A DNA stretch of 24,000 nt from Arthrobacter ginkgonis (lineage in GTDB: Bacteria > Actinomycetota > Actinomycetes > Actinomycetales > Micrococcaceae), in NCBI RefSeq assembly GCF_039540195.1, contig NZ_BAABEO010000025.1, forward strand, positions 83,631-107,630. Reading direction: 5' to 3'. The notes beneath the pieces were generated by a model. The model was not told where the DNA came from. It was given only the letters and a program-made list of their open reading frames with translations, and did not search any database. The position numbers and the translations under genes are program-made. Below are positions 13,722-24,000 of the stretch, piece by piece (position 1 is the first letter of the stretch; each line of letters starts with the position of its first letter).

Positions 13722-14705
13722 TCAGCGCACCGACAGCAGGTTGCGCGGGTTGTCGACGAGGATGCGCTGGGCATCCTCGTCGCTCAGGCCCTGCGACTTG
13801 AGGAAGGGCGCGAACGTGGACAGGACGTAGCTGTACGGCAGGTCGTAGTCCGGCAATCCCTTGGCCACGCCGATCGCGTTGCCGGACAGGATGATCTGGT
13901 GCCCGTGGCCGGCCGCGACGAGTTCGAGCACCAGGGCCGCGCGCTCGCGGTCGGTGAGGTAGTCGCCGTCGTCGTTCAGGCCGACGTGGTCCAGGCCCAC
14001 GAAGGCCCCCCGGCGGGCCACCTCATGGGCGGCGCCGGCGGCGTCCTTGCGGTCAAGGTCCCCCACAAGCACCCGGTCGGCCGGAATCTTCTCCTCCAGC
14101 ACGACGTCGAGGTCGTGCACGGCGTCGGCGCCGAAGCGGATGGACACCGGCACCCCGGTGTCCAGCGCGGCGCGGGCCGAACCGCGGAACAGGCTCTCCT
14201 CGGTGGCGGTCATGCCGCTGCGGTCGGCGGTGGTCGTGACGATGCCGGCGGCGGCACGGCGCTCAACGCGGGGGACCACCATGCCCTCGGTGACCTCCTT
14301 GGAGAAGAGGTCCGCGAACTTCTCGGCCGGCCACGGGGTCGGGGGGTTGGTCTGCGGCGTCAGAAAGTAGCCGCCGAGCTCCTCCTCGGGGCCAAGGCCC
14401 GTGGAGGCGACGATGTGCACGCCGGTAGAGCGGGACAGGGCCTCGTAGAGCTTGAGGTCGCGGCCGTGGAACATGCCTGTACTGTCGACGATGGTCTTTC
14501 CGCCCTGGGCGCGGAAGTCCGCCAGCTTCGCGGCCAGGATCTCGAAGATCTCCGCCCGGTCCATGGTGATGTCCGGGGCGTACTGGGCGCCGGGGAGCAC
14601 CGAGAGCAGGGCCTCGTGGACCCCGACAACACCCAATTCGTGAGCGGGGACGGGGCCAAGGACCGTGTTGACGGTTTGGCCGGTGACATTCGTTGTATCC
14701 GTCAT
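13722..14705 (-). CDS. PTE-family paralog with most metal-ligand positions substituted (possible pseudoenzyme or partner subunit)
   Basis: It is colinear by eye with the downstream PTE gene (TVNTVLG.VPA.ELG.V..HE..., GG.T.VD.TG...GRD...Y..LSR.TGV.IVA.TG, AAGIV, TGVPV, DRVL.G). The ligand positions read VHEALL (second His->Ala), GIVTTTA (Lys->Thr), VSIRFG (His->Arg), LVGDLDR (His->Asp) and ILSGNAI (Asp->Asn). The ATG at 14705 has GAAAGG 8 nt upstream; the track start is GTG at 14711. Confidence 0.7.
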   Translation of the reverse strand: MTDTTNVTGQTVNTVLGPVPAHELGVVGVHEALLSVLPGAQYAPDITMDRAEIFEILAAKLADFRAQGGKTIVDSTGMFHGRDLKLYEALSRSTGVHIVASTGLGPEEELGGYFLTPQTNPPTPWPAEKFADLFSKEVTEGMVVPRVERRAAAGIVTTTADRSGMTATEESLFRGSARAALDTGVPVSIRFGADAVHDLDVVLEEKIPADRVLVGDLDRKDAAGAAHEVARRGAFVGLDHVGLNDDGDYLTDRERAALVLELVAAGHGHQIILSGNAIGVAKGLPDYDLPYSYVLSTFAPFLKSQGLSDEDAQRILVDNPRNLLSVR

Positions 14706-14905
14706 TGGCACAACCTTTCGTCAGCGTCACGCCCTCATTGGCGTCACGCGCTGGGAAGGATCATGCACCGCGCGACCTCTGGATGGATCCTCGCCGAACT
14801 CGGTGCAGGCGATGTAAACGAAGGAGACAGCGCGCGGGGAGCCCAGGATCCGCTATGGACCCTAGTCCCCTGCTCGCGCCTGTGACCTTGATTACCTGCG
14901 TACTA

Positions 14906-14933
14906 GATTTACATGTTGTTATGCCAAAGTCAA
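14906..14933 (-). promoter_or_regulatory. Candidate sigma70-type promoter for the PTE operon, with an adjacent CTAG-centred element
   Basis: On the minus strand: TTGACT (14933-14928), a 16-nt spacer, then TAAATC (14911-14906). This is the only AT-rich stretch (14886-14935) in the gap between the GntR stop and the PTE-like start. GTACTAGAT (14899-14907) half-resembles the HutC/DasR-type core GTCTAGAC. Confidence 0.3.
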
Positions 14934-14985
14934 TGGAGAGTCTCCCGCAGCTGGCCGCGCTCCTCCTTCGGGGCCCGGCGGCGAC

Positions 14986-15729
14986 TCAGCGGCTGGTGGT
15001 GAACCGGTACTTGAAATCCTCGGCACGGTGCACCGCGGAACGCCATCCCGCGGGCAGGCCCCCGGTCGTGAAGAAGGTTGTCTCGATGACGAGCAACGGG
15101 CTCCCCTCGCCCACGCCGAAGGTCGCCGCCTGGCCGGCGGTTGCCGCCGTCGCCCAGGCTTCGTGCTCGGCCCGGTCGAGCGTGATGCCGAACTCCCGCT
15201 CCAGCAGCTCGAAGGCGGATCCCCGGTCTTCCAGTTCCTCAATCGAGGGGCTGAACTCCTCGGGCGCGCGAACATAGATGCTGGCTTCCACGAGAGGCTC
15301 GTTCTCGACCGAGATCAACCGGATGAAATGCAGGAGCCGTTCGTGCGCTTCGAGCCCCAAGAGGTCCCGAATCCGGGCGGGGGGTTCCACGCGTTCGATG
15401 CCGGAAACCGTCCCGGTCGGATGCAGTCCGCTGTCGGAGAGGTACTGGTACAGGGCCCCCGACCGCACGTCGGCCGGCCGCCGCACCCGGGCACCCGTGA
15501 CCGGGAACGTCCCCTTGCCTTGCTTCCTGTAGACGTACCCCTCGCTGACGAGCTCCTGGAGGGCCTGCCGGATGGGCGCCCGGCTGACGTCGAATCGGCC
15601 GAGCAGCTGCGCCTCGGTCATCGGCGTGTTGGGATCCACGTTTCCCTCGGCGATCTCCCTGCGCAGGATTTCCTTGATCTGCCGATACAGGGGTACCCCG
15701 GACGAGGGATCGAGCTCGCCATATGCCAT
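14986..15729 (-). CDS. GntR-family transcriptional regulator, HutC subfamily (wHTH + UTRA effector domain)
   Basis: Likely start ATG 15729 ([29 protein letters not shown]...[35 protein letters not shown]). The C-terminal half has a UTRA-like layout (chorismate-lyase fold pattern). Confidence 0.8.
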   Translation of the reverse strand: [247 protein letters not shown]

Positions 15730-15826
15730 CAGTCTTCTGTTCCTCCACGCCAGGTGCCACCGGGTTGTAGCCTGCAGGAAGTCAACCACAGAACGGCGAA
15801 AGCATAGGCGACGGCGTTCGGCAGCC

Positions 15827-16507: not shown

Positions 16508-16783
16508 GTGAAGAAGATCGGATTCCTGTCCTTCGGCCACTGGACCGACCACCCGCAGTCCGGCACGCGCAGCGCGTCGGACGCGCTCCTGCAGGCGATC
16601 GACCTCGCGGTCGCGGCCGAGGAGCTCGGCGCGGACGGCGCCTACTTCCGTGTTCACCACTTCGCGCAGCAATACGCCTCCCCGTTCCCGCTGCTCGCCG
16701 CGATCGGGGCACGGACCAGCCGAATCGAGATCGGCACGGGCGTCATCGACATGCGCTACGAGAATTGCAACTCCATGAATTGA
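16508..16783 (+). pseudogene. 5' fragment of an LLM-class (luciferase-like) flavin-dependent oxidoreductase gene, truncated by insertion
   Basis: VKKIGFLSFGHWTDHPQSGTRSASDALLQAIDLAVAAEELGADGAYFRVHHFAQQYASPFPLLAAIGARTSRIEIGTGVIDMRYEN matches the N-terminal roughly 25% of LLM enzymes of about 330-350 aa. After the Asn codon (16763-16765) the frame reads CNSMN-stop, and the integrase gene begins within about 10 nt. Confidence 0.65.
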
Positions 16784-16800
16784 GCTACCTTGGGTAGCGT
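16745..16800. other. Host/element junction (attL-like); crossover inferred near 16765-16768
   Basis: LLM homology by eye ends at ...MRYEN (codon 16763-16765). The element-derived sequence tgcaactccatgaattgagctaccttgggtagcg runs into the integrase start. The exact core dinucleotide cannot be determined from one junction. Confidence 0.4.
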
Positions 16801-18352
16801 GACCGACAACCGCCTCCGCGCTGTGCTGTACCTCAGATTGTCGGCTGTGTCCGACGACTCCACCAGCCTCGATCGTCAGGAAAGAGACCTGCGCGAGCAC
16901 GCCGGGCGCAAGGGCTGGCACGTCACCGAGGTCCTCGTAGATGAAGGCATCTCCGGCAGGAAAGCCCGCGCCAAGGCCGCCGAGGCCGTCCGTATGATCG
17001 CCGACGACGAGGCCGACGTCCTGGCCGTGTGGAAGTTGGACCGCTTTACAAGAATGGGCTATGACGGGCTCGGCGCGCTCTCCCAGGCCCTCGCCACCCG
17101 CGCCGAGGGCGCCAAGGCTGGCCGGTGCATCCCGGCGCTATTCGTCGCCCTGCATGACGGCCTCAATTCCAATCAAGCCGCGTTCCGCATGATCGCGGGC
17201 GTATTGAGCGAGGTTGCCAGGAGCGAGGCCGAGAACGCCGCCGCGCGCATTGCTAACTCGATCGAGCACCGCAAGACACGGACCCATAAATTCGCGGGAG
17301 GGTCCGCCGTGCCGCTCGGCTACCGCTCTGTCCCGGCGCCGGACGGTACGGGGCGCATCCTCGTACACGACGACGAGGAGGTCGCCCTTATCCGCGACGT
17401 GGCGGCGCGCATCCTCTCCAATATCGAGTCGCTTACCGGCATCGCCGCCGACCTGAACAAGCGCGGCGTGCCGACGTCCAGGTCGCTCGCGCGCCGCGCG
17501 CTCCGCCAGGGGTTGCCCGCCGAGGGCCTGGATACTGGCAAGTGGACTGTGTCGACGTTCCGCAACGTCTGGACGTCCGACGTGCTCCTCGGCCGCGTCG
17601 TGCATCGTGGCAAGTTCGTTTCCGACGCCGCCGGAATCCCCTTGGCCGTATGGCCGCCGATCCTGGACCGCTCCACCCTGGACGCTCTCCGCGTCCGCAT
17701 GAACTGGAAGCCGCGCAAGGATCAACGCGGCCCGCTGGGGCTCCCGCCCGCGCCGAAACCGAAGGTCCAACCTACCCGCAAGCGTGCCGCGCGGATCTTG
17801 TCGTCGGTCGCGTTCTGTGGGCTCTGCGACTCGCGCCTGTACGTGACGACGACGTCGGGCACACCTATCTACAAGTGCGGGTCTAGCTGGAATGGTGAGA
17901 AATGCCCTTCGCCGTCGATCACCGCCGACGCCCTGGACGAGTACGTCGCCGCCCGCGTCCTGGCCGTCGCCGGAGAGTGGCCCGAAATGGCTACCGAGAC
18001 GATCGCCAGCGGCGGCGCCCCCGAGGCGACCCTCGCCGAGATCGAGGCTCTCCTCCGCGAGGCGTCCGTCGCCATGACGGAGGACGACGCCCAGGTGCCG
18101 GAACTCCTGGAGCGGATCGCCGGACTCAAGGCCCGCCGTGCCGACCTCCGCGCCCGCCCCGTGACCGTCGAGACCGTAAGCAAGCCCACCGGCCGCACGC
18201 TGGCCGAGGCATGGGACGCCGACGAGGGCACCGCCTGGCGCCGTTCTGTCCTCCTATGGGCGATCGACCATGTCCGCGTCGGTCCGCGTACGCCCGGCAT
18301 GGGCACCCGCGCATTCGACGAGGACCGCGTCGCGATCTACTGGAACTCCTGA
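16790..18352 (+). CDS. int: Large serine recombinase (Bxb1/phiC31-type serine integrase)
   Basis: N-terminal resolvase domain with a catalytic Ser context AVLYLRLSAVSDDSTSLDRQ, and VWKLDRFTR. It also has a recombinase domain, zinc ribbon FCGLCDSRLYV...YKCGSSWNGEKCPS, a coiled-coil segment (EIEALLRE...LLERIAGLKARRADLRAR) and a C-terminal WRRSVLLWAIDHVRV. The architecture parallels Bxb1 gp35 as I recall it. The start is TTG 16790 or GTG 16799. Confidence 0.9.
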   Translation: MGSVTDNRLRAVLYLRLSAVSDDSTSLDRQERDLREHAGRKGWHVTEVLVDEGISGRKARAKAAEAVRMIADDEADVLAVWKLDRFTRMGYDGLGALSQALATRAEGAKAGRCIPALFVALHDGLNSNQAAFRMIAGVLSEVARSEAENAAARIANSIEHRKTRTHKFAGGSAVPLGYRSVPAPDGTGRILVHDDEEVALIRDVAARILSNIESLTGIAADLNKRGVPTSRSLARRALRQGLPAEGLDTGKWTVSTFRNVWTSDVLLGRVVHRGKFVSDAAGIPLAVWPPILDRSTLDALRVRMNWKPRKDQRGPLGLPPAPKPKVQPTRKRAARILSSVAFCGLCDSRLYVTTTSGTPIYKCGSSWNGEKCPSPSITADALDEYVAARVLAVAGEWPEMATETIASGGAPEATLAEIEALLREASVAMTEDDAQVPELLERIAGLKARRADLRARPVTVETVSKPTGRTLAEAWDADEGTAWRRSVLLWAIDHVRVGPRTPGMGTRAFDEDRVAIYWNS

Positions 18353-18376
18353 GAGCCGCCCGGCGGCCCCGTACGG

Positions 18377-18406
18377 AAGCCCCGGACACATTCCTGGCCG
18401 GGGCTT
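18377..18406 (+). terminator. Stem-loop after the integrase gene
   Basis: AAGCCCCGG (18377-18385) / CCGGGGCTT (18398-18406) with a 12-nt loop, followed by TCCTATTCCC. It lies 25 nt after the stop. Confidence 0.45.
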
Positions 18407-18983
18407 TCCTATTCCCGCACACGGGCGCCCAGAGCCGCCCAGGAGACCGCCCGGCACCGCGCGGCCTAGGCGTTCCGCGCCCGTCCTCCGCGCTTCTAGG
18501 TCCAGTCCCGCGCCTGGATCCTGGCGCCGACCCGAGGAGCCCCAGACGCCCCGCTGAGGCCCTCCTCTTGTCTCCGGCGGCTGGCGCCGGTCCTGTCCGC
18601 GCGAGGCCCGGAGGTGGCCACGTGGCGACCTTGGATCCCTGCGCCGTGGCCAGGCTGGCGGGCGGCGCCCGCCTCGGCGAGATGCCAGCCCGTTTACACG
18701 CCGAGGACAACGCGGGAGGAGGCGGCCGTCGCCCCCGTGCCAGTTTCCCCGCCAGGAGGCGCCGCCCCAGGATCCGCCCGTGCCCGGCGGGCCTGAAGGC
18801 TCTGGCCCGGTTCCGAGGCCGCCAGGCGGCCGCCCAGGGCGCCGGAGGAGGTGGCGGCGGTTCGCCCTCGCGGGGAGAGGGCGGCCCGCCCCGTGCCCGC
18901 GTCCGTGCCAGCGCGGGAGACGACGGCCGGAGGCGCCGGAGAGGTCGTTTTCCCGACCCTGGACGCCTGCGTCTGAGCCTAAA

Positions 18984-19092
18984 GGTGGTGGAAGTGGTGA
19001 AAGTGGAGGTACTTCTCTATCCGTTCTCAAGTAAAGCCATTACTTGAGTAGAGATATAGAGAGACCACCACTTTCGCCACTTTCACCACTTC
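18984..19092. repeat. Module 1: inverted arrays of 9-bp GTGGNGNNN units flanking an AT-rich core with a central hairpin
   Basis: Left array is GGTGGTGGAAGTGGTGAAAGTGGAGGT (18984-19010). The right array, as its reverse complement, is GAAGTGGTGAAAGTGGCGAAAGTGGTGG (19092-19065). The identical 16-mer GAAGTGGTGAAAGTGG lies at 18991-19006 and inverted at 19077-19092. TCTCTAT/ATAGAGA is also inverted. The central hairpin is CTCAAGTAA (19026-19034) / TTACTTGAG (19040-19048) with a 5-nt loop. Confidence 0.8.
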
Positions 19093-19223
19093 GGGCCGTC
19101 ACCGGCCGCCCTGGCCCGCTCCCCGCGCGATCGTGACCGGCCGCACGCCCCGGCCGTGGACAGTTTCGGCGCTCCTGGCGGTCTTCTCTCTTGTAAGCAC
19201 CCGACCACGACCCCGGCCCGGTC

Positions 19224-19387
19224 GGATCCGCATTTAACGGACCCTGGCCGTCTACTCAGACGGGAGAGACCCGCGCATTTGTAACACCCCCGGCCGTCTA
19301 CTCAGACGGGAGAGATCCGCGCCCGCGTCCTGTACGCCCGGCCGTCTACTCCAGTAGGAAAGATCCGCGCCGCGTGCGCCTGGATCC
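19224..19387 (+). repeat. Tandem direct repeat, period 46-48 bp, about 3 copies, each with a conserved 31-bp core containing a 6-bp hairpin
   Basis: GGCCGTCTACTCAGACGGGAGAGACCCGCGC begins at 19246 and GGCCGTCTACTCAGACGGGAGAGATCCGCGC at 19292. A degenerate copy GGCCGTCTACTCCAGTAGGAAAGATCCGCGC begins at 19340. CCGTCT-ACTC-AGACGG is self-complementary. Flanking (GA)TCCGC(GC)ATTTRTAAC is also repeated before copies 1 and 2. Confidence 0.85.
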
Positions 19388-19404
19388 TCCCCCCCACCAA
19401 GTTT

Positions 19405-19610
19405 GAACCGTCCGCGCCCGCGCACTCTCCGGGGCGCGGCGGTTCGCACCCCGTCCGAGCGGCCTAAGCCCCCGCTCGGCGCTGGCCCTCGTGGCCGGTC
19501 TTTTCATGGATGGGACCCGGTAGCCCCGCCGCCGTAAACCCGGCGGGGCTACTGCCCTCCTGTCCGTGAGCCCTCACCCGCCGCCGTACCCTCGGCGGCA
19601 TTTTCATTTG
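19405..19610 (+). ncRNA. Structured untranslated region: four or five consecutive GC-rich hairpins, the last terminator-like (candidate leader/attenuator or small RNA)
   Basis: H1 at 19405-19445 pairs GAACCG(T)CCGCGCCC with GGGCGCGGCGGTTC. H2 at 19455-19479 pairs CCGAGCGG with CCGCTCGG. A weak stem with TCTTTTC lies at 19482-19505. H3 at 19520-19552 pairs GTAGCCCCGCCG with CGGCGGGGCTAC (12 bp, perfect). H4 at 19580-19599 pairs GCCGCCG with CGGCGGC and is followed by ATTTTCATTTG (to 19610). No ORF covers the region. Whether this is an RNA, and on which strand, is inferred. Confidence 0.3.
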
Positions 19611-19648
19611 CCAAACAAAGTAAGCCAACGCCCGAAAGGAGGCCGCCC

Positions 19649-19864
19649 ATGGCCGACCATGTCTGTCTCATTTGTCACCGCCCGTTCACTGGCCAGGCCA
19701 GCGCGGAAACGTGCTCTACAGCCTGCCGAGTCACCCGCTCCCGGCGGCGCAAGGAGGCCGAGCGCCGGAAGGCCCTGGACCTCCTGGCCCGCATGGCCAC
19801 CGCCCGCGACCCGGCCGTCGTCGAGTCGCTCCGGCGCGAGGCCGAGCGCCTCACCCGCGACTAG
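19649..19864 (+). CDS. Small zinc-ribbon-like basic protein (71 aa), function unknown
   Basis: Strong RBS GAAAGGAGG sits 6 nt before the ATG. The sequence MADHVCLICHRPFTGQASAETCSTACRVTRSRRRKEAERRKALDLL has a CxxC-x12-CxxxC arrangement followed by an Arg/Lys-rich helix. Confidence 0.7.
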   Translation: MADHVCLICHRPFTGQASAETCSTACRVTRSRRRKEAERRKALDLLARMATARDPAVVESLRREAERLTRD

Positions 19865-19870
19865 CCCGCG

Positions 19871-19944
19871 AGTGGTGAAAGTGGCGTTTGTGGTCTTTCT
19901 TCTGTTCGTTTCTACAGTTCTGCTCTCTCTAGCCACACCACACC
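19871..19944. repeat. Module 2: a second GTGG-unit array, pyrimidine/AT-rich core and CCAC-rich inverted partner
   Basis: AGTGGTGAAAGTGGCG (19871-19886) is identical to the reverse complement of 19075-19090 in module 1. It continues TTTGTGGTCTTTCTTCTGTTCGTTTCTACAGTTCTGCTCTCTCTA, then GCCACACCACACC (19932-19944). It starts 7 nt after the zinc-ribbon gene stop. Confidence 0.7.
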
Positions 19945-20171
19945 CCCCCAAACTCACCCCCCACACGCTGACTAGGCGAAATGCGCCTATTTGCCCGCCT
20001 ACGCATGGTGCGTGTGGTGAGTAGCCGGCCCCTATTTACAGCGGCCGGCAATTCACGCGGGGAGAGCCTCCGGCCCTTACGCCCGGAGGGCGTTTGTGTC
20101 CCTCCAACTCACGCCCGCAAGTACCGCCCCACACCGGGGCACCGCCCCCACCCCTTGAAAGGACCCCCACC

Positions 20172-21029
20172 ATGCCTAGCCCCGTCCGCCTGACCGCCTG
20201 GACCGCCAACCCGTCCACCTCCACCAACCCGCTCCCGTCGCCGTCGACGGCCCGCCGTTCCGGCGGCTGGCCGATTGGTCTCCTGTCCGAACTCCTGGCC
20301 CCGGAGATCGCCCGGAGGGGCGTCACGTACAAGCGTGGCCAGGGGTTCCGCCAGTTCGGCGAGACCCTGGACGACTACGCCGTCGCGACGATTGCGCGCA
20401 CGGTCCTAACGATCGCGGCCGAGCACCTGGACCCGCACCAGTCCCGTTATGAGTCCCTGGAGCGTGTCCGCGACATGGCCGCCGAGTGGATGGACGAGGC
20501 CCACGCCGAGGCTCACAGCATGATCGACGACTACGAGGAGGCCGAGGCGGTCGCCCAGGCCGCTACGGCGGCGCCTACGTCGTTCTACGCCGCCGCCGTC
20601 GAGGGCATGGAGGCCCGCGACGCGCTGGCCCTGGATCGTGAGACGGCCGCCCGTGTGGCGCCGTTCGATGAGTACGCCGTCGCCTTGTCTCGCACGGCCC
20701 GCGACCTGAAACAGTCCGGCCACGCCCGCGCCGCCCTGGCTCGGGATCTGCGTTCGCTCCTGCCCGCGCCGGTTGCCGAGGCGGACACCTCCGGGGACGA
20801 CGCGGCCGCGTGGCTGTCCCAGTTCGACGAGGTCGACAAGGTCCGCCAGGCCGACCTCGCCCGCGAGTACGACCTGGACGGCGCGCCCGGCGGCCTGTCC
20901 GGTTCCGAGTTGCGCGCCCTGGCGGCGACCCGTTGGGGGATGCCGCGCGCGTTGCGTGGTTACCCGACGTTCCGGCCCGCGCGTGCGGCCGACCGTACCG
21001 CCCGCGAGACCGTCGGCGCCGCCAATTGA
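20172..21029 (+). CDS. Hypothetical protein (285 aa), Ala/Asp/Glu-rich, no recognised domain
   Basis: ATG 20172 is preceded by TTGAAAGGACCCCCACC, inside track ORF 20094..21029. Composition is coding-like, unlike the overlapping Arg/Pro-rich shadow frames. Confidence 0.65.
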   Translation: MPSPVRLTAWTANPSTSTNPLPSPSTARRSGGWPIGLLSELLAPEIARRGVTYKRGQGFRQFGETLDDYAVATIARTVLTIAAEHLDPHQSRYESLERVRDMAAEWMDEAHAEAHSMIDDYEEAEAVAQAATAAPTSFYAAAVEGMEARDALALDRETAARVAPFDEYAVALSRTARDLKQSGHARAALARDLRSLLPAPVAEADTSGDDAAAWLSQFDEVDKVRQADLAREYDLDGAPGGLSGSELRALAATRWGMPRALRGYPTFRPARAADRTARETVGAAN

Positions 21030-21151
21030 GCGCCGCCAACCGTGCGACCGCCTACGGCCTCACCGGCGCCACTGCCGTTCTCTACCGCCTGGCGGCGTTA
21101 GAGGCCCAGGTCGACGAGGCTCTCGCCCGCCCGACCGCCCCCACCCGATAA
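21026..21151 (+). CDS. Possible 41-aa helical micro-protein (SAANRATAYGLTGATAVLYRLAALEAQVDEALARPTAPTR)
   Basis: TTG at 21026 overlaps the upstream TGA (21027-21029) as TTGA, and the stop TAA is at 21149-21151. It fills the gap to the next gene and has a heptad-like LAALEAQVDEAL. No independent RBS is present. Confidence 0.25.
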   Translation: MSAANRATAYGLTGATAVLYRLAALEAQVDEALARPTAPTR

Positions 21152-21181
21152 CCCCAACCCCTCCCGAAAGGACCCCCACCC

Positions 21182-21607
21182 ATGAATTTCCGCACCCCGG
21201 ACAACTACGGCCGCCCGATCTACCCGGCCGCCGTTGTCGCCGTTGTCCCTGGCGCCTCCGAGGCCCTGGCCGCTTGGACGGCCGCCACGGACCCGACCGA
21301 GGCCGCCACCCTCCGCGCCGCCCTGGATGACCTGATGGGCGGCCCCGATAACTACGTGGCCCGCACCCGCGCGGCCGCCACGCTGGCCCTGGAGGCCCAG
21401 GCCGACGCCGTCACCGCTTGGCAGGCTCTCCGCACCGCCCTGGCGACCCGCGAGGCCGCCCTCGGCTACGTCGTCCCCGGCCGTACCTGGCGCCTGCCCG
21501 TGGCCCCGCCTGGCGGCGTCGCCGAGGGGGCCGCCCAGGTCGAGCACATGATCGACGCTTTCGTTTCCGGCCTGGACGTTGACGCCCTGGAAATCATCGC
21601 CAACTAG
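21182..21607 (+). CDS. Hypothetical protein (141 aa); short member of a tandem paralog pair
   Basis: ATG is preceded by CCGAAAGGACCCCCACCC. It shares N-terminal G(R/Q)x(I/V)YPA...GAxEALAAW and C-terminal G(L/F)DVDALE blocks with the next ORF. Confidence 0.7.
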   Translation: MNFRTPDNYGRPIYPAAVVAVVPGASEALAAWTAATDPTEAATLRAALDDLMGGPDNYVARTRAAATLALEAQADAVTAWQALRTALATREAALGYVVPGRTWRLPVAPPGGVAEGAAQVEHMIDAFVSGLDVDALEIIAN

Positions 21608-21675
21608 CCCCAACCCCACCCCCGCCATTCGCCGTCCGGCGTCCTGGCACCCCATCCCCGAAAGGACCCCATCCC

Positions 21676-22407
21676 ATGAGTACCCACACCCTCAAGATCA
21701 CCGCCAACGGCCAGCGCGTGTACCCGGCCTGGCTTATCCGCCTCACGTCCGGCGCCGAGGAGGCCCTCGCCGCGTGGGAGGCCTTGGACGCTGAGGCCCG
21801 GACCTACTTCGACGCCGTCCGCGCCGCCCTGCGGGCAAAGAACGAACTCGGCCGCATGGTCGACGGTGAACTCGTCCCCAAGCCCGGTATCCGCGCCGCC
21901 GCGCTTGAGGACGCCCAGGAGGCCGTCCGTCAGGCCGAGGCCGCCCAGGCCGCGCACGCCCGCAAGGTGAGCGCCGCCCGCCGCAAGTTCGACACCCTCA
22001 TGCAGAACCCGTCCGGCCCGGAGGTCCGCCGCAAGGCCGCCGCCGAGTACGCGATCGAACAGCACGCGGAAGTGGCCCGGCTGTGGCCGCTCCTGGCCGC
22101 CGCCCTGGAGGACCGCGACGACGCGCACCGCGTCGCCGGATCGCCGGGCCGCTCTTGGGAGAACACGGCTGGCGTCCCCAGCGGCGGCCGCTTCCATGTC
22201 GTCGGCGAGGCCGAGCGGATCCTCTCCGGTGCTATCGACGGTTTCGACGTCGACGCCCTGGAGCGTGTGGCCGCTGGCGAGGACGTCGCCCCCGCGATCG
22301 AACTGCACCCCGACGAGAGCAACCCCGCCCAGGCAATCAAGAAGGCCGAGGAGAGGCGCGCCGCTAGCCAGGCCGAGGCGGCCCGCTCCCGCGCCGCCGG
22401 TTTTTAG
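21676..22407 (+). CDS. Hypothetical protein (243 aa); long member of the same paralog pair
   Basis: ATG is preceded by CCGAAAGGACCCCATCCC. NGQRVYPAWLIRLTSGAEEALAAWEALD and ILSGAIDGFDVDALERVAAG match the upstream ORF. The central Ala/Arg/Glu-rich helical insert is unique to this copy. Confidence 0.7.
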   Translation: MSTHTLKITANGQRVYPAWLIRLTSGAEEALAAWEALDAEARTYFDAVRAALRAKNELGRMVDGELVPKPGIRAAALEDAQEAVRQAEAAQAAHARKVSAARRKFDTLMQNPSGPEVRRKAAAEYAIEQHAEVARLWPLLAAALEDRDDAHRVAGSPGRSWENTAGVPSGGRFHVVGEAERILSGAIDGFDVDALERVAAGEDVAPAIELHPDESNPAQAIKKAEERRAASQAEAARSRAAGF

Positions 22408-22494
22408 CCCGCCCTCCCTCACCACTCCCGCGCCGGGGTCCCGCGTTACTGCGTGGCCCTGGCGCACCCATACCCGCCCCCAGAAAGGCACCCC

Positions 22495-22740
22495 ATGACC
22501 AACGCCCACAACATCGCCGACGAGATCCTCGCCAAGTCCTCCAAGGGCCTCCCGGCCAGGTATACCGACCTGGACGACCGCACGCGCGCCCTTGTCGAGT
22601 CCCGCGCGGCCGCCGCCGGTACGACCCCGGAAAACTACTGGTCCGCCGTCCTGGCCCAGCGCGAGCAGGACCAGGCCAAGCGCGACGCCTCCGCCAAGGC
22701 CCAGGAGATCGCCCTAGCCGCCCGTTCGCGCGGCTACTAG
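22495..22740 (+). CDS. Hypothetical protein (81 aa)
   Basis: ATG 22495 is preceded by CAGAAAGGCACCCC, inside track ORF 22453..22740. Sequence: MTNAHNIADEILAKSSKGLPARYTDLDDRTRALVESRAAAAGTTPENYWSAVLAQREQDQAKRD... Confidence 0.6.
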   Translation: MTNAHNIADEILAKSSKGLPARYTDLDDRTRALVESRAAAAGTTPENYWSAVLAQREQDQAKRDASAKAQEIALAARSRGY

Positions 22741-22747
22741 GCCCGCC

Positions 22748-23044
22748 GTGCTGGAGACCGGCCGGAGGATGCCGAAGAAAACGCGGGAGCAACGAGCGTA
22801 TGACCGCCGTGTTCGTTCCCGCGTCGAGGGCTTCATGGTCTGCCTCGGCAAGTTCGCCACCGACGCCCACGCGGACGCCGTCCCGCTCGGTCTCCTCGGC
22901 TGGCTCCGCCGCTCCGAGTACCTCGCACTGTCCGAGGCCGAGCGGCTGGAGCACCTCAAGGCCGCCGTCCGCGCTGAGGTGAAGGCCGACGAGGGACCGC
23001 GCCCCGCGCACCCTGACGAGGCCGAGCCCTGGCCCACCTACTAA
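22748..23044 (+). CDS. Hypothetical protein (91-98 aa); short member of a second tandem paralog pair
   Basis: Start is GTG 22748 or ATG 22769. EQRAYDRRVRSRV...FA...A.PLGLL...YLALSEAERLEHLKAAVRAEVKADEGPRPAHPDE aligns with the N-terminal half of the next ORF. Confidence 0.6.
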   Translation: MLETGRRMPKKTREQRAYDRRVRSRVEGFMVCLGKFATDAHADAVPLGLLGWLRRSEYLALSEAERLEHLKAAVRAEVKADEGPRPAHPDEAEPWPTY

Positions 23045-23075
23045 CCCAACTCGTTTACACGAAGGACCCAACCCC

Positions 23076-23711
23076 ATGAACATCGAGACCACCGCCACCG
23101 AGACCAGCAAGCCGAATCACACCCCGGAACAGCGCCGCTATGACCGCGCGGTTTACCGCCGCGTTAAGCGCGGCATGGAGCACAGCGCCAGGTTCGCCGC
23201 CGCCGACGCCGCAACCGCCCCGCTCGCCCTCATGGCGCCCCACTCCCGCGCGGCCTGGCTGGCCCTGGACGAGGCCGCACGCCTGGACCATTTGCGCCAG
23301 GTCCTCCGCGCCCAGGCTAAGGCCGTCATCGGCCCGCGCCCGGAGGACGTCGAGGAGACCGCACCGGCCACCGTCGAGACCACGGCCGCACCGGCCACCG
23401 TCGAGACCACGGCCGCACCGGCCACGCCTGCCCGCCCCTCCGGCCGCCGCCTCGTCGTTGCCTGCATCGGCGGGTGCGGAACCTGGATAGTCGCCACCTC
23501 GGCCCGGCCCGCCGTCGTGCGATGCACGCCCGGCCAGCGCCGCGCCCAGCGCGAGGACCCGACCGGCGCCGCTCCCGTTGAGGCCCGCTCGTCGCACGCC
23601 GCGACCGCCTCGGCCGTCGACTACTCCGCCGCCCGTGCCGAGCGCCCGGCCGCCGCCCAGGGTAGGCGCAAAGCCAAGCGCCGCGCCCGCGCCGCGACCT
23701 GCGGCAAGTAG
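23076..23711 (+). CDS. Hypothetical protein (211 aa); long member of the second paralog pair, with a 9-aa tandem repeat and a Cys-containing basic C-terminal extension
   Basis: ATG is preceded by ACGAAGGACCCAACCCC. EQRRYDRAVYRRV...FAAADAATAPLALM...WLALDEAARLDHLRQVLRAQAKAVIGPRPEDVEE is paralogous to the upstream ORF. It continues with PATVETTAA x2.5, then VVACIGGCGTWIV...VVRCTPGQRR and an RRKAKRRARA tail. Confidence 0.65.
   Translation: MNIETTATETSKPNHTPEQRRYDRAVYRRVKRGMEHSARFAAADAATAPLALMAPHSRAAWLALDEAARLDHLRQVLRAQAKAVIGPRPEDVEETAPATVETTAAPATVETTAAPATPARPSGRRLVVACIGGCGTWIVATSARPAVVRCTPGQRRAQREDPTGAAPVEARSSHAATASAVDYSAARAERPAAAQGRRKAKRRARAATCGK
23361..23428 (+). repeat. In-frame 27-bp tandem repeat, about 2.5 copies
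   Basis: GCACCGGCCACCGTCGAGACCACGGCC occurs at 23361-23387 and identically at 23388-23414, with a partial copy GCACCGGCCACGCC at 23415-23428. Confidence 0.9.
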
Positions 23712-23725
23712 CCACGCACACCGAG

Positions 23726-23765
23726 AGGAGGCCGAGCACATGCACAAGCACACGCTCGGCCTCCT
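23726..23765 (+). terminator. Stem-loop after the 211-aa ORF
   Basis: 12-bp perfect stem AGGAGGCCGAGC (23726-23737) / GCTCGGCCTCCT (23754-23765) with a 16-nt loop, 15 nt after the stop. About 155 nt of non-coding DNA follows before the next RBS. Confidence 0.4.
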
Positions 23766-23919
23766 AGCCCGGCCAGGGTGGGGGGTGACCCCTCCCCCGC
23801 CCCCTCGCTCCTGCCCGAAGCGGCATAGCACTAGGCCCCAAGCGTGCGACCCGTGTTTTTCAGCCCCAGCCCATCCCCGGCCGTCCCTACGGCCACCACG
23901 ACGACCAGGAGGTCGCCCC

Positions 23920-24000
23920 ATGACTACCCCAACCGCCCCAGCCGTCGACCCCGACGTCGACGAGATCCCCACTCCCGCGCACCTCGGCGAGGCGGGCGCG
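23920..24000 (+). CDS. Partial CDS (first 27 codons; runs off the right edge), hypothetical
   Basis: ATG 23920 is preceded by CAGGAGGTCGCCCC. It reads MTTPTAPAVDPDVDEIPTPAHLGEAGA and is open to the window end. Confidence 0.4.
   Translation, partial: MTTPTAPAVDPDVDEIPTPAHLGEAGA

What the first reader, a model, noticed from the sequence alone, without database searches (positions are those of the whole stretch)
16508..16800. Serine-integrase element inserted inside an LLM flavin oxidoreductase coding sequence, with a readable junction
The ORF starting at GTG 16508 encodes a textbook LLM N-terminus up to GTGVIDMRYEN. After codon 16763-16765 it switches to five unrelated codons and a stop. The integrase start (16790/16799) follows almost immediately, so the phage-type half-site would overlap the integrase 5' end. 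Intragenic integration with attP directly 5' of int parallels mycobacteriophage Bxb1, which integrates into groEL1. This locates an attB for a potentially new serine integrase/att pair, a useful genome-engineering reagent class.
Basis: partly seen in the sequence, partly recalled or inferred. Interest (0 to 1): 0.6.

Follow-up and report, generated by a model that had tools for sequence, protein, structure and literature searches.

The report
Serine-integrase island splitting an LLM gene
A 10.9-kb mobile island, probably a phage satellite, has been cut into one exact spot of a flavin oxidoreductase gene by its own Bxb1-type serine integrase; Arthrobacter phages and two other recombinase lineages use that same short stretch, so the finding is real but is an ordinary kind of event.

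Summary
The ORF from GTG 16508 is the first 86 codons of a luciferase-like (LLM) flavin oxidoreductase. It then reads five foreign codons and a stop, and a 517-aa large serine integrase follows.

Intact orthologues in related genomes carry the rejoined sequence without a gap. The two flanks overlap by only 4 bp (AGAA). A sister island in Arthrobacter sp. AQ5-05 narrows the crossover to the dinucleotide AA (window 16763-16764).

The integrase is about 60% identical to those of cluster AZ Arthrobacter phages. Their palindromic attP sites, 26-35 bp upstream of int, mimic the LLM half-site. An AZ-type prophage in Pseudarthrobacter siccitolerans sits at the same dinucleotide in the opposite orientation.

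The cargo is a small terminase, an endonuclease-VII-like protein, a zinc ribbon and orphan genes, with no RDF. Sister islands carry capsid and connector genes. This points to a phage satellite, which is an inference.

Two other serine-recombinase lineages insert within about 10 bp. One of them, a mercury element, was noted earlier in this scan on other DNA.

Verdict: a new member of a known kind, of moderate interest.

The parts
16508..16765 (+). 5' fragment (86 codons) of an LLM-class flavin-dependent oxidoreductase gene, ending ...GTGVIDMRYEN
   Evidence: Pfam PF00296 at E 3e-14. It is 95-99% identical to the N-termini of intact 340-aa orthologues.
16766..16783 (+). Five island-derived codons (C N S M N) plus TGA that terminate the truncated LLM frame
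   Evidence: Direct reading. Orthologues continue PLYMAE here.
16739..16789 (.). attL: host B arm (16739-16762), crossover dinucleotide AA (16763-64), island P' arm (16765-16789) with the outer motif TGAGCTACC
   Evidence: The blastn HSPs against intact orthologues end at 16764 (L009 764) and overlap by 4 bp with the attR HSP. Symmetry analysis places the centre at AA.
16763..16764 (.). Inferred central (crossover) dinucleotide AA inside the 4-bp shared core AGAA (16761-16764)
   Evidence: In the sister island (G054/L021) attL and attR share only AA. The attP dyad centres in G000, G054 and seven phages fall on this AA/TT.
16799..18352 (+). Large serine integrase, 517 aa (alternative TTG start at 16790 gives 520 aa)
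   Evidence: PF00239, PF07508 and PF13408. It aligns over residues 6-486 with PDB 9iu2_A at E 1.6e-23. It is 58-62% identical to cluster AZ phage integrases. All columns invariant in the ten-sequence alignment are kept, including Ser15 in YLRLS.
16784..16798 (+). 6-bp hairpin GCTACC-TTG-GGTAGC spanning the TTG and ending just before the GTG start
   Evidence: Present in the MFE and centroid folds, but the region as a whole is not more stable than shuffles (z = +1.4). No significance is claimed.
16765..24000 (+). Visible part of the 10,866-bp island. It continues to window-equivalent 27630 (G000:C25:111260; L009 11630), where attR (...GAGCGATAGAA|CCCGCTCTACATGG) restores the LLM 3' part (L009 11629-12396)
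18353..19648 (.). 1.3-kb stretch without a convincing ORF, between int and the first cargo gene
   Evidence: The codon-position GC profile shows no coding frame. One weak 67-bp blastn hit to AZ4 phage Emotion.
19649..19864 (+). 71-aa zinc-ribbon protein, conserved in sister islands
   Evidence: 54% identical to a gene in island L054. The G054 island counterpart matches phrog_6975 and HNH-type PHROGs. The G000 protein's own matches are weak (phrog_1271 at E 0.0014).
20094..21029 (+). Orphan cargo protein (311-aa ORF; the matching database protein P0121 is 285 aa), a marker of the island family
   Evidence: Only one homologue in 5.8 billion proteins, P0122 at 59%. That homologue lies in a similar island at a different target. 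It is also 50% identical to a gene in island L038.
21676..22407 (+). 243-aa orphan cargo protein shared with sister island L054
   Evidence: 60% identical by tblastn. No Pfam match.
23770..24000 (+). Start of a small-terminase-like gene (whole gene L009 7770-8312, running past the window end)
   Evidence: phrog_1496 terminase small subunit at E 3e-12. It is 44% identical to the G054 island TerS and 55% to the L038 island TerS.

Best explanation
A 10,866-bp integrative island (window 16765 to window-equivalent 27630) was inserted by its own Bxb1-type large serine integrase into the conserved MRYE|NPLYMAE codons of an LLM flavin oxidoreductase gene. Shown: the gene is split into an 86-codon 5' part and a 255-codon 3' part, neither of which is otherwise damaged. 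The rejoined flanks equal the uninterrupted sequence of orthologues. Host and island sequence share only AGAA at both junctions. The integrase is intact and begins 26-35 bp after the crossover. Inferred: the 2-bp staggered cut falls on AA (16763-64). attP is about 50 bp, made of the last ~25 bp of the island plus the first ~25 bp, and it ends at the int start codon. Integration therefore places int directly behind the truncated LLM frame, where host transcription could read into it. The same attB dinucleotide is used by the integrases of cluster AZ Arthrobacter phages, in the opposite orientation, and by a sister island in Arthrobacter sp. AQ5-05. The island itself is most likely a phage satellite (about 60% confidence for this part). 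It has a small terminase, an endonuclease-VII/HNH-like protein and orphan genes, but no capsid, tail, lysis, relaxase or RDF genes. Excision would then depend on an RDF supplied in trans, plausibly the Gp3-like RDF of an AZ-type helper.
For: - Split gene and missing half.
- Empty site in relatives: the rejoined flanks are contiguous in 11 orthologues. The two blastn HSPs overlap by exactly 4 bp. 235 of 301 family genomes match, nearly all with open frames of 340 aa or more. Same-genus G033 is intact and lacks the integrase.
- Integrase: three LSR domains, an end-to-end alignment with PDB 9iu2_A including the Ser nucleophile and the zinc-ribbon cysteines, and every column that is invariant in the ten-sequence alignment is kept.
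- Central dinucleotide: G054 attL and attR share only AA. Dyad centres score 11/25 (G000), 17/25 (G054) and 15-19/25 (seven phages), all on AA/TT.
- Phage link: 58-62% identity to AZ integrases. The phage attP inner half-sites (CGCTAyGGG-TT-CTCGTAGCG) equal the LLM left half-site. A prophage integrase 73% identical to VResidence Int lies next to the reverse-complemented LLM 3' part in P. siccitolerans 4J27, joined at the same TT.
- Satellite reading: TerS and an EndoVII-like protein. The G054 island has a major capsid protein, adaptor, stopper and HNH protein 40-77% identical to VResidence. Islands L054 and L038 share cargo with G000 but carry a different integrase or the opposite orientation.
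- No RDF: no tblastn hit to VResidence gp30 and no PF18897 match in G000.
Against: - No direct evidence of mobility. The attP joint is absent from the viral and metagenome collections and from the assembly.
- G000's attP is only weakly symmetric (11/25).
- The satellite call rests on one PHROG match (TerS) and on sister elements. TerS has no tblastn hit in 50,697 phage records. No repressor, primase/replication module or capsid gene was found in G000's island. No AZ-like helper prophage is resident in G000.
- The integrase tree does not resolve an island clade.
- No promoter-like site was found on either side of int, so read-through from the LLM promoter is conjecture.
Confidence: 0.85

Rival explanations
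1. The element is an immobile fossil, either a decayed prophage or a decayed island. It entered by serine integration but can no longer excise or transfer.
For: Small size, no RDF, no regulators and no replication gene recognised. The attP is weakly symmetric at 11/25. No excised form was found.
Against: The integrase is full length and keeps every column that is invariant in the ten-sequence alignment. Both LLM halves are free of stops or frameshifts and 88-99% identical to orthologues. Islands of the same size and gene order exist with other integrases and targets (L054, L021, L038). That pattern is expected of a living element family, not of random decay.
Confidence: 0.12
2. The element is an integrative mobilizable or conjugative element (IME/AICE type), not a phage satellite.
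For: Neighbouring insertions in the same LLM spot are of that type. Class B carries a MobA/VirD2 relaxase. Class C carries a Rep-like protein and HTH_17.
Against: No relaxase, FtsK/TraB, Rep or Nudix domain was found in G000's island. It does have a TerS-like gene and an EndoVII/HNH-like gene, and its sister island carries phage head and connector genes.
Confidence: 0.06
3. The LLM ORF is a naturally short gene, a frameshift or an assembly chimera, and the integrase is merely adjacent.
For: Many 87-110-aa LLM fragments exist in protein databases.
Against: The missing 3' part lies on the same contig and strand, in frame with the join. The flanks overlap by 4 bp on intact orthologues. The short database proteins examined in context are themselves insertion junctions. 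The same junction recurs independently in G054.
Confidence: 0.01

Closest known systems
Mycobacteriophage Bxb1 integrase / attP / attB in groEL1 (PMC1470463; Kim et al. 2003, cited there)
   Same: Large serine integrase of about 500 aa with the same three-domain layout, alignable from end to end. Small att sites with partial dyad symmetry around a non-palindromic 2-bp centre. attB lies inside a protein-coding gene, which is thereby truncated.
   Different: The phmmer match to the Bxb1 chain is distant (E 1.6e-23, 86 bits). The centre is AA instead of GT. The target is an LLM oxidoreductase gene, cut at about a quarter of its length, not at the 3' end of groEL1. The carrier is a 10.9-kb island, not a 50-kb phage. 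No RDF is present on the element (Bxb1 has gp47).
Serine integrases of cluster AZ Arthrobacter phages (VResidence, Tbone, KeAlii, Wildwest, Phives, SWEP2; bioRxiv 10.1101/2025.05.26.655371, PMC8758107)
   Same: 58-62% identical integrase. attP lies 26-35 bp upstream of int and keeps the outer AGCTA-type arms. The LLM attB and crossover dinucleotide are the same, as shown by the 4J27 prophage junction.
   Different: The inner attP half-sites are unrelated: the phages mimic the LLM half-site and the island does not. The phages have TT on the int-sense strand where the island has AA, so the orientation in the chromosome is opposite. The island integrase has two insertions (5 aa and about 16 aa) that these phage integrases lack. 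The two AZ papers never mention attP or attB.
Phage satellites of the PICI / capsid-forming PICI kind (SatelliteFinder, PMC10085698)
   Same: About 10 kb with the integrase at one end. A packaging gene (TerS) and an HNH/EndoVII-type nuclease, but no tail or lysis genes. The sister island carries a helper-like major capsid protein, adaptor and stopper.
   Different: The integrase is a serine type. No recognisable repressor, primase/replication module, portal or protease was found in G000's island. The helper has not been identified experimentally. The host is a Micrococcaceae member, and that paper reports only some satellites in Actinobacteria.
Class B mercury-resistance IME with a 478-aa serine recombinase in the same LLM gene (earlier scan note e1-3197869)
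   Same: It splits the same LLM gene, 6 bp upstream of the class A centre (TA versus AA). It is also a large serine recombinase and also 7.5-11.5 kb.
   Different: The recombinase is only about 24% identical. The crossover centre is the palindromic TA, within an 11-bp identity between attP and attB. It is found in both orientations. The cargo is a relaxase with MerA and MerR, not packaging genes.

Membership tests
Large serine recombinase (serine integrase) | N-terminal resolvase-type catalytic domain with the nucleophilic serine | tested here: met
   PF00239 at E 1e-16. Ser15 in YLRLS aligns with the serine of the IRLS motif of PDB 9iu2_A and is invariant in 10 relatives.
Large serine recombinase (serine integrase) | Recombinase domain followed by a zinc-ribbon domain with its cysteines | tested here: met
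   PF07508 at E 8e-8 and PF13408 at E 1e-10. C340, C343 and C360 are invariant and C369 is nearly invariant.
Large serine recombinase (serine integrase) | Short attP and attB with partial dyad symmetry around a non-palindromic 2-bp crossover; attL and attR are hybrids | tested here: met
   4-bp shared core, narrowed to AA by the G054 junctions. Dyad centres lie on AA/TT. This is sequence inference only.
Large serine recombinase (serine integrase) | Unidirectional attP x attB recombination without host factors; excision needs an RDF | not testable with these tools
   Needs an in vitro or two-plasmid assay. No RDF homologue was found.
Phage satellite (PICI / cf-PICI-like) | Small (about 8-18 kb) integrated element with an integrase and without a full virion gene set | tested here: met
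   10,866 bp. Among VResidence proteins only Int has a significant tblastn hit in the island.
Phage satellite (PICI / cf-PICI-like) | Packaging-hijack genes (TerS, HNH, capsid or connector genes) | tested here: inconclusive
   TerS-like at E 3e-12 and EndoVII-like at E 9e-5 in G000. Capsid, adaptor and stopper genes occur only in the sister island G054.
Phage satellite (PICI / cf-PICI-like) | Regulatory module (repressor) and primase/replication module | tested here: not met
   No such domain in Pfam or PHROGs for any island ORF. The only primase-helicase hit in G000 is on another contig, C12.
Phage satellite (PICI / cf-PICI-like) | Helper-dependent induction and packaging | not testable with these tools
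   Needs infection experiments.
LLM-class flavin-dependent oxidoreductase (target gene) | Full-length Bac_luciferase TIM-barrel of about 340 aa | tested here: met
   The two halves together cover paralogue residues 1-342. Orthologue L019 is 340 aa. It matches only generic LLM models, all below the NCBIfam equivalog cut-offs, so the substrate is unknown.

The most novel reading that the evidence does not exclude
The island is a satellite that shares its helper phage's chromosomal attB but has evolved a private attP with the centre flipped. It therefore inserts the other way round, with int placed 7-16 bp behind the truncated LLM frame and expressed from the host promoter. It carries no RDF and excises only when an infecting AZ-type phage supplies its Gp3-like RDF. 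By occupying attB it also denies the helper its lysogeny site. More broadly, the ~20-bp DMRYENPLYMAE-coding stretch is a shared landing pad for at least three serine-recombinase lineages. It would thus offer a natural set of integrases with one attB and different attPs.
Probability: 0.25. Interest if true: 0.65.

Novelty: new member of a known kind. Interest (0 to 1): 0.45.

Why it matters
This gives a concrete, testable att pair for a new Bxb1-type serine integrase: the attB sequence, an attP of about 50 bp, and the centre AA. It also gives the probable chromosomal attB of the whole cluster AZ Arthrobacter phage integrase group. The two AZ comparative papers I could read do not report that site. 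Three attP versions (G000, G054, phage) appear to pair with one attB. That is useful material for studying how serine integrases read attP versus attB, and for building orthogonal integration tools in Actinobacteria. The case also adds a probable phage-satellite family in Micrococcaceae that swaps integrase modules. None of this is conceptually new: intragenic serine-integrase sites and integration hot spots are well known, and thousands of such att pairs have been predicted computationally (my own knowledge).

Tried and rejected
- Exact search for the attP joint: nothing in viral contigs or metagenome contigs. In the G000 assembly only attL and attR exist.
- Promoter and terminator scans around int and the right island end: no promoter-like site.
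- RNA: no Rfam family in the island; the only hit is a tRNA-Leu about 1.4 kb outside it. The 6-bp hairpin at the int start is not statistically notable.
- TerS tblastn against phages: no match.
- blastn of the 1.3-kb non-coding block against phages: one weak 67-bp hit.
- Integrase tree: the islands do not form a supported clade, so I make no claim about descent.
The only primase-helicase hit is on contig C12.
- AG or GA as the crossover: rejected, because the G054 junctions share only AA.
- Literature: no paper in the library links AZ integrases, or any actinobacterial serine integrase, to an LLM attB. The only LLM target found was for Tn5252-type ICEs in Streptococcus suis, which is unrelated.

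Full report
**1. Observation**

The window is G000:C25:83631-107630, from a 5.19-Mb, 53-contig, high-GC actinobacterial genome of the Arthrobacter family. I read the following at 16508-16800:
- GTG 16508 opens a frame encoding MKKIGFLSFGHW...GTGVIDMRYEN.
- N86 is AAT at 16763-65.
- Five unrelated codons follow (C N S M N), then TGA at 16781-83.
- An ORF starts at TTG 16790 or GTG 16799 and runs to 18352.

Pfam places residues 9-80 of the short ORF on positions 3-75 of the 314-position Bac_luciferase model (E 3e-14). It finds Resolvase, Recombinase and Zn_ribbon_recom domains in the next ORF. The description is accurate, except that the ORF is 91 aa and not 92.

**2. The missing half and the empty site**

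An intact paralogue of 345 aa lies on contig C23. Used as a tblastn query on the whole genome, it matches residues 1-86 at C25:100138-100395. It matches residues 86-342 at C25:111259-112023, on the same strand. I fetched C25:99631-113630 as L009, so an L009 position equals the window position minus 16000.

The 3' part begins AAC CCG CTC TAC ATG GCC GAG (NPLYMAE) at L009 11629.

In 301 genomes of the family, 235 have a match, and nearly all orthologues are open for 340 aa or more. Joining the two flanks gives a sequence that is contiguous in eleven orthologues. It is identical over the central ~45 bp in L014 and L020.

In blastn against four of these orthologues, the left and right HSPs overlap by exactly 4 bp, AGAA. 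This core is at L009 761-764 and 11627-11630. The inserted DNA is therefore 10,866 bp. The same-genus genome G033 has the intact gene and no such integrase.

**3. Crossover position**

A sister island of 9,150 bp sits at the same spot in G054, which is Arthrobacter sp. AQ5-05. Its integrase is 61% identical. Its attL reads ...GAGAA|TCCG and its attR reads ...GAAAA|CCCG. They share only AA, with a mismatch on each side. Serine integrases exchange strands at an identical 2-bp overhang (PMC1470463), so the centre is AA, at window 16763-64.

Dyad symmetry was scored independently, and the best centre is the same AA in both reconstructed attPs. The score is 11/25 in G000 and 17/25 in G054. The P' arm (16765-16789) ends at the TTG start codon.

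**4. The integrase and its relatives**

- phmmer aligns residues 6-486 with the 500-aa PDB chain 9iu2_A (E 1.6e-23). I recognise its N-terminus MRALVVIRLS as Bxb1 integrase, from my own knowledge. The alignment includes the nucleophilic serine and the zinc-ribbon cysteines.
- tblastn against 50,697 phage records gives 58-61% identity over the full length to the serine integrases of cluster AZ Arthrobacter phages. These include VResidence, Tbone, KeAlii, Wildwest, Phives, Tuck and SWEP2. Identity to Curtobacterium phages is 54%.
- In a ten-sequence alignment the island protein keeps every invariant column. It shares two insertions with the G054 island integrase that the AZ and Curtobacterium phage integrases lack.
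- A maximum-likelihood tree does not resolve these groups.

**5. The AZ phages use the same attB**

All six AZ phages examined have a strong imperfect palindrome 26-35 bp upstream of int (16-19/25). It is centred on TT and has the inner sequence CGCTAyGGG-TT-CTCGTAGCG. The reverse complement of the LLM site is GAGCGGG-TT-CTCGTAGCGCATG, so the phage half-sites copy the LLM left half-site.

The prediction was that such prophages lie at the same dinucleotide but the other way round, with int next to the LLM 3' part. It is borne out in Pseudarthrobacter siccitolerans 4J27 (L043). There an integrase 73% identical to VResidence Int is preceded by the reverse-complemented LLM 3' part. The join reads ...CAGGGGA-TT-CTCGTAGCGTCAGAGTAAGCTATT, followed 5 bp later by the int ATG.

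The two comparative papers on cluster AZ never mention attP or attB. A library search linking serine integrases to an LLM attB found only an unrelated Streptococcus suis ICE target. An integrase 52-55% identical in G241 sits in a different gene, a CpaF/TadA-like ATPase by my reading of its sequence. It belongs to what looks like a full prophage.

**6. What the island is**

The codon-position GC profile and homology define these genes, in order:
- int;
- a 1.3-kb ORF-free block;
- a 71-aa zinc ribbon;
- orphan ORFs of 311, 141, 243, 95, 98 and 211 aa;
- a small-terminase-like gene (phrog_1496, E 3e-12; L009 7770-8312);
- a 148-aa ORF;
- an endonuclease-VII-like protein (phrog_1035, E 9e-5);
- a 157-aa ORF;
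- on the other strand, a HIRAN-domain protein (PF08797, E 1e-12) and a 110-aa ORF.

No capsid, portal, tail, lysis, relaxase, FtsK or replication domain was found.

Three related elements help to place it:
- The G054 island carries a major head protein, adaptor Ad1, head closure Hc1, TerS and an EndoVII/HNH protein. Its hyp5, major capsid, adaptor, stopper and HNH proteins are 40-77% identical to VResidence proteins.
- A third island, L054 in Arthrobacter sp. NPDC089319, shares six cargo genes with G000. Its serine integrase is only 26% identical, and it lies in a tad pilus locus.
- A fourth element, L038, sits at the same LLM GAGAA| junction with its genes reversed. It shares TerS (55%) and the 311-aa protein (50%) with G000.

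This is a family of ~10-kb islands that exchange integrase modules. Their packaging genes fit phage satellites (PMC10085698).

The AZ phages' RDF is Gp3-like (PF18897). Neither it nor any AZ-like prophage is present in G000. The control genomes for the family search did not ring either, so that negative result is weak. Reliance on a helper's RDF is an inference.

**7. A shared landing pad**

Besides class A, the same LLM stretch is split in six other genomes of the 301 by 7.5-11.5-kb class B elements.
- attL reads GACATGCGCTA|GCGCATGTC, a perfect palindrome centred on TA.
- attP and attB share an 11-bp identity.
- The centre lies 6 bp upstream of the class A centre.
- The elements carry a 478-aa serine recombinase, a MobA/VirD2 relaxase, a MerA-type reductase and MerR.
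- They occur in both orientations: int lies next to attL in L022, L025, L026 and L027, and next to attR in L023 and L024.

Class C is a third lineage, with a 510-aa serine recombinase starting 13 bp after ...YENPI*. One metagenomic contig has a single-gene 1.4-kb insert flanked by a TACGAGAACCC repeat.

**8. Limits**

- The attP joint is absent from the public contig collections and from the assembly.
- No promoter-like site was found.
- Mobility, the exact att lengths, the RDF source and the satellite lifestyle remain untested.

**9. Verdict**

Both the observation and the interpretation are correct. The element is a new member of a known kind: a Bxb1-type serine-integrase island in an intragenic attB. 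It has two useful extras. It gives the probable attB of the cluster AZ phage integrases, and it provides a natural set of different attPs for one attB. Interest is moderate.

Noticed in passing
L023-L027 and L022 (G013, G190, G006, G274, G171, G030); the same LLM codons as window 16750-16765: Class B 7.5-11.5-kb mercury/relaxase elements with a 478-aa serine recombinase. attL is a perfect palindrome centred on the self-complementary TA. The elements occur in both orientations, even within one genus (G190 versus G006). This fits the Bxb1 rule that only the central dinucleotide sets orientation (Ghosh et al. 2003, listed in the references of PMC1470463).
   Followed up: partly
L039/L040 (metagenome contig and GCA_023254755.1): Class C: a 510-aa serine recombinase starts 13 bp after an LLM fragment ending ...MRYENPI*. 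It is followed by Rep-like, HTH_17 and XRE genes. This is a third recombinase lineage within about 10 bp of the same site.
   Followed up: partly
L041 4250-5720: The same LLM codons are interrupted by only 1.4 kb, carrying a single reverse-strand gene (SLFN_AlbA_2 plus HATPase_c_4). The insert is flanked by an 11-bp direct repeat, TACGAGAACCC. The mechanism is unclear.
   Followed up: no
G000:C23:191015-192049 (paralogue), site near 191780: The intact LLM paralogue carries an unoccupied look-alike of the attB (CTGCGCTACGAAAACCCCCTGTACATGG). It is a possible secondary site.
   Followed up: no
G000:C12:64443-68880: A second, distant serine integrase (25% identical to VResidence Int) lies next to a primase-helicase homologue (29% identical to VResidence gp38). 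This is another integrated element in the same genome.
   Followed up: no
L054 15046-17407 (Arthrobacter sp. NPDC089319 island): The sister island carries an XhoI-type restriction enzyme and an Eco57I/N6-methylase gene pair at its far end. This is a defence cargo absent from G000's island.
   Followed up: no
window 25970-26671 equivalent (L009 9970-10671, minus strand): A HIRAN-domain protein (PF08797, E 1e-12) with a long acidic, proline-rich N-terminus is encoded at the right end of the island. Its role is unknown.
   Followed up: no
window 13722-15789: Upstream host genes are a phosphotriesterase-family protein, a GntR/UTRA regulator and a DUF2231 membrane protein. They are unrelated to the island.
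   Followed up: no
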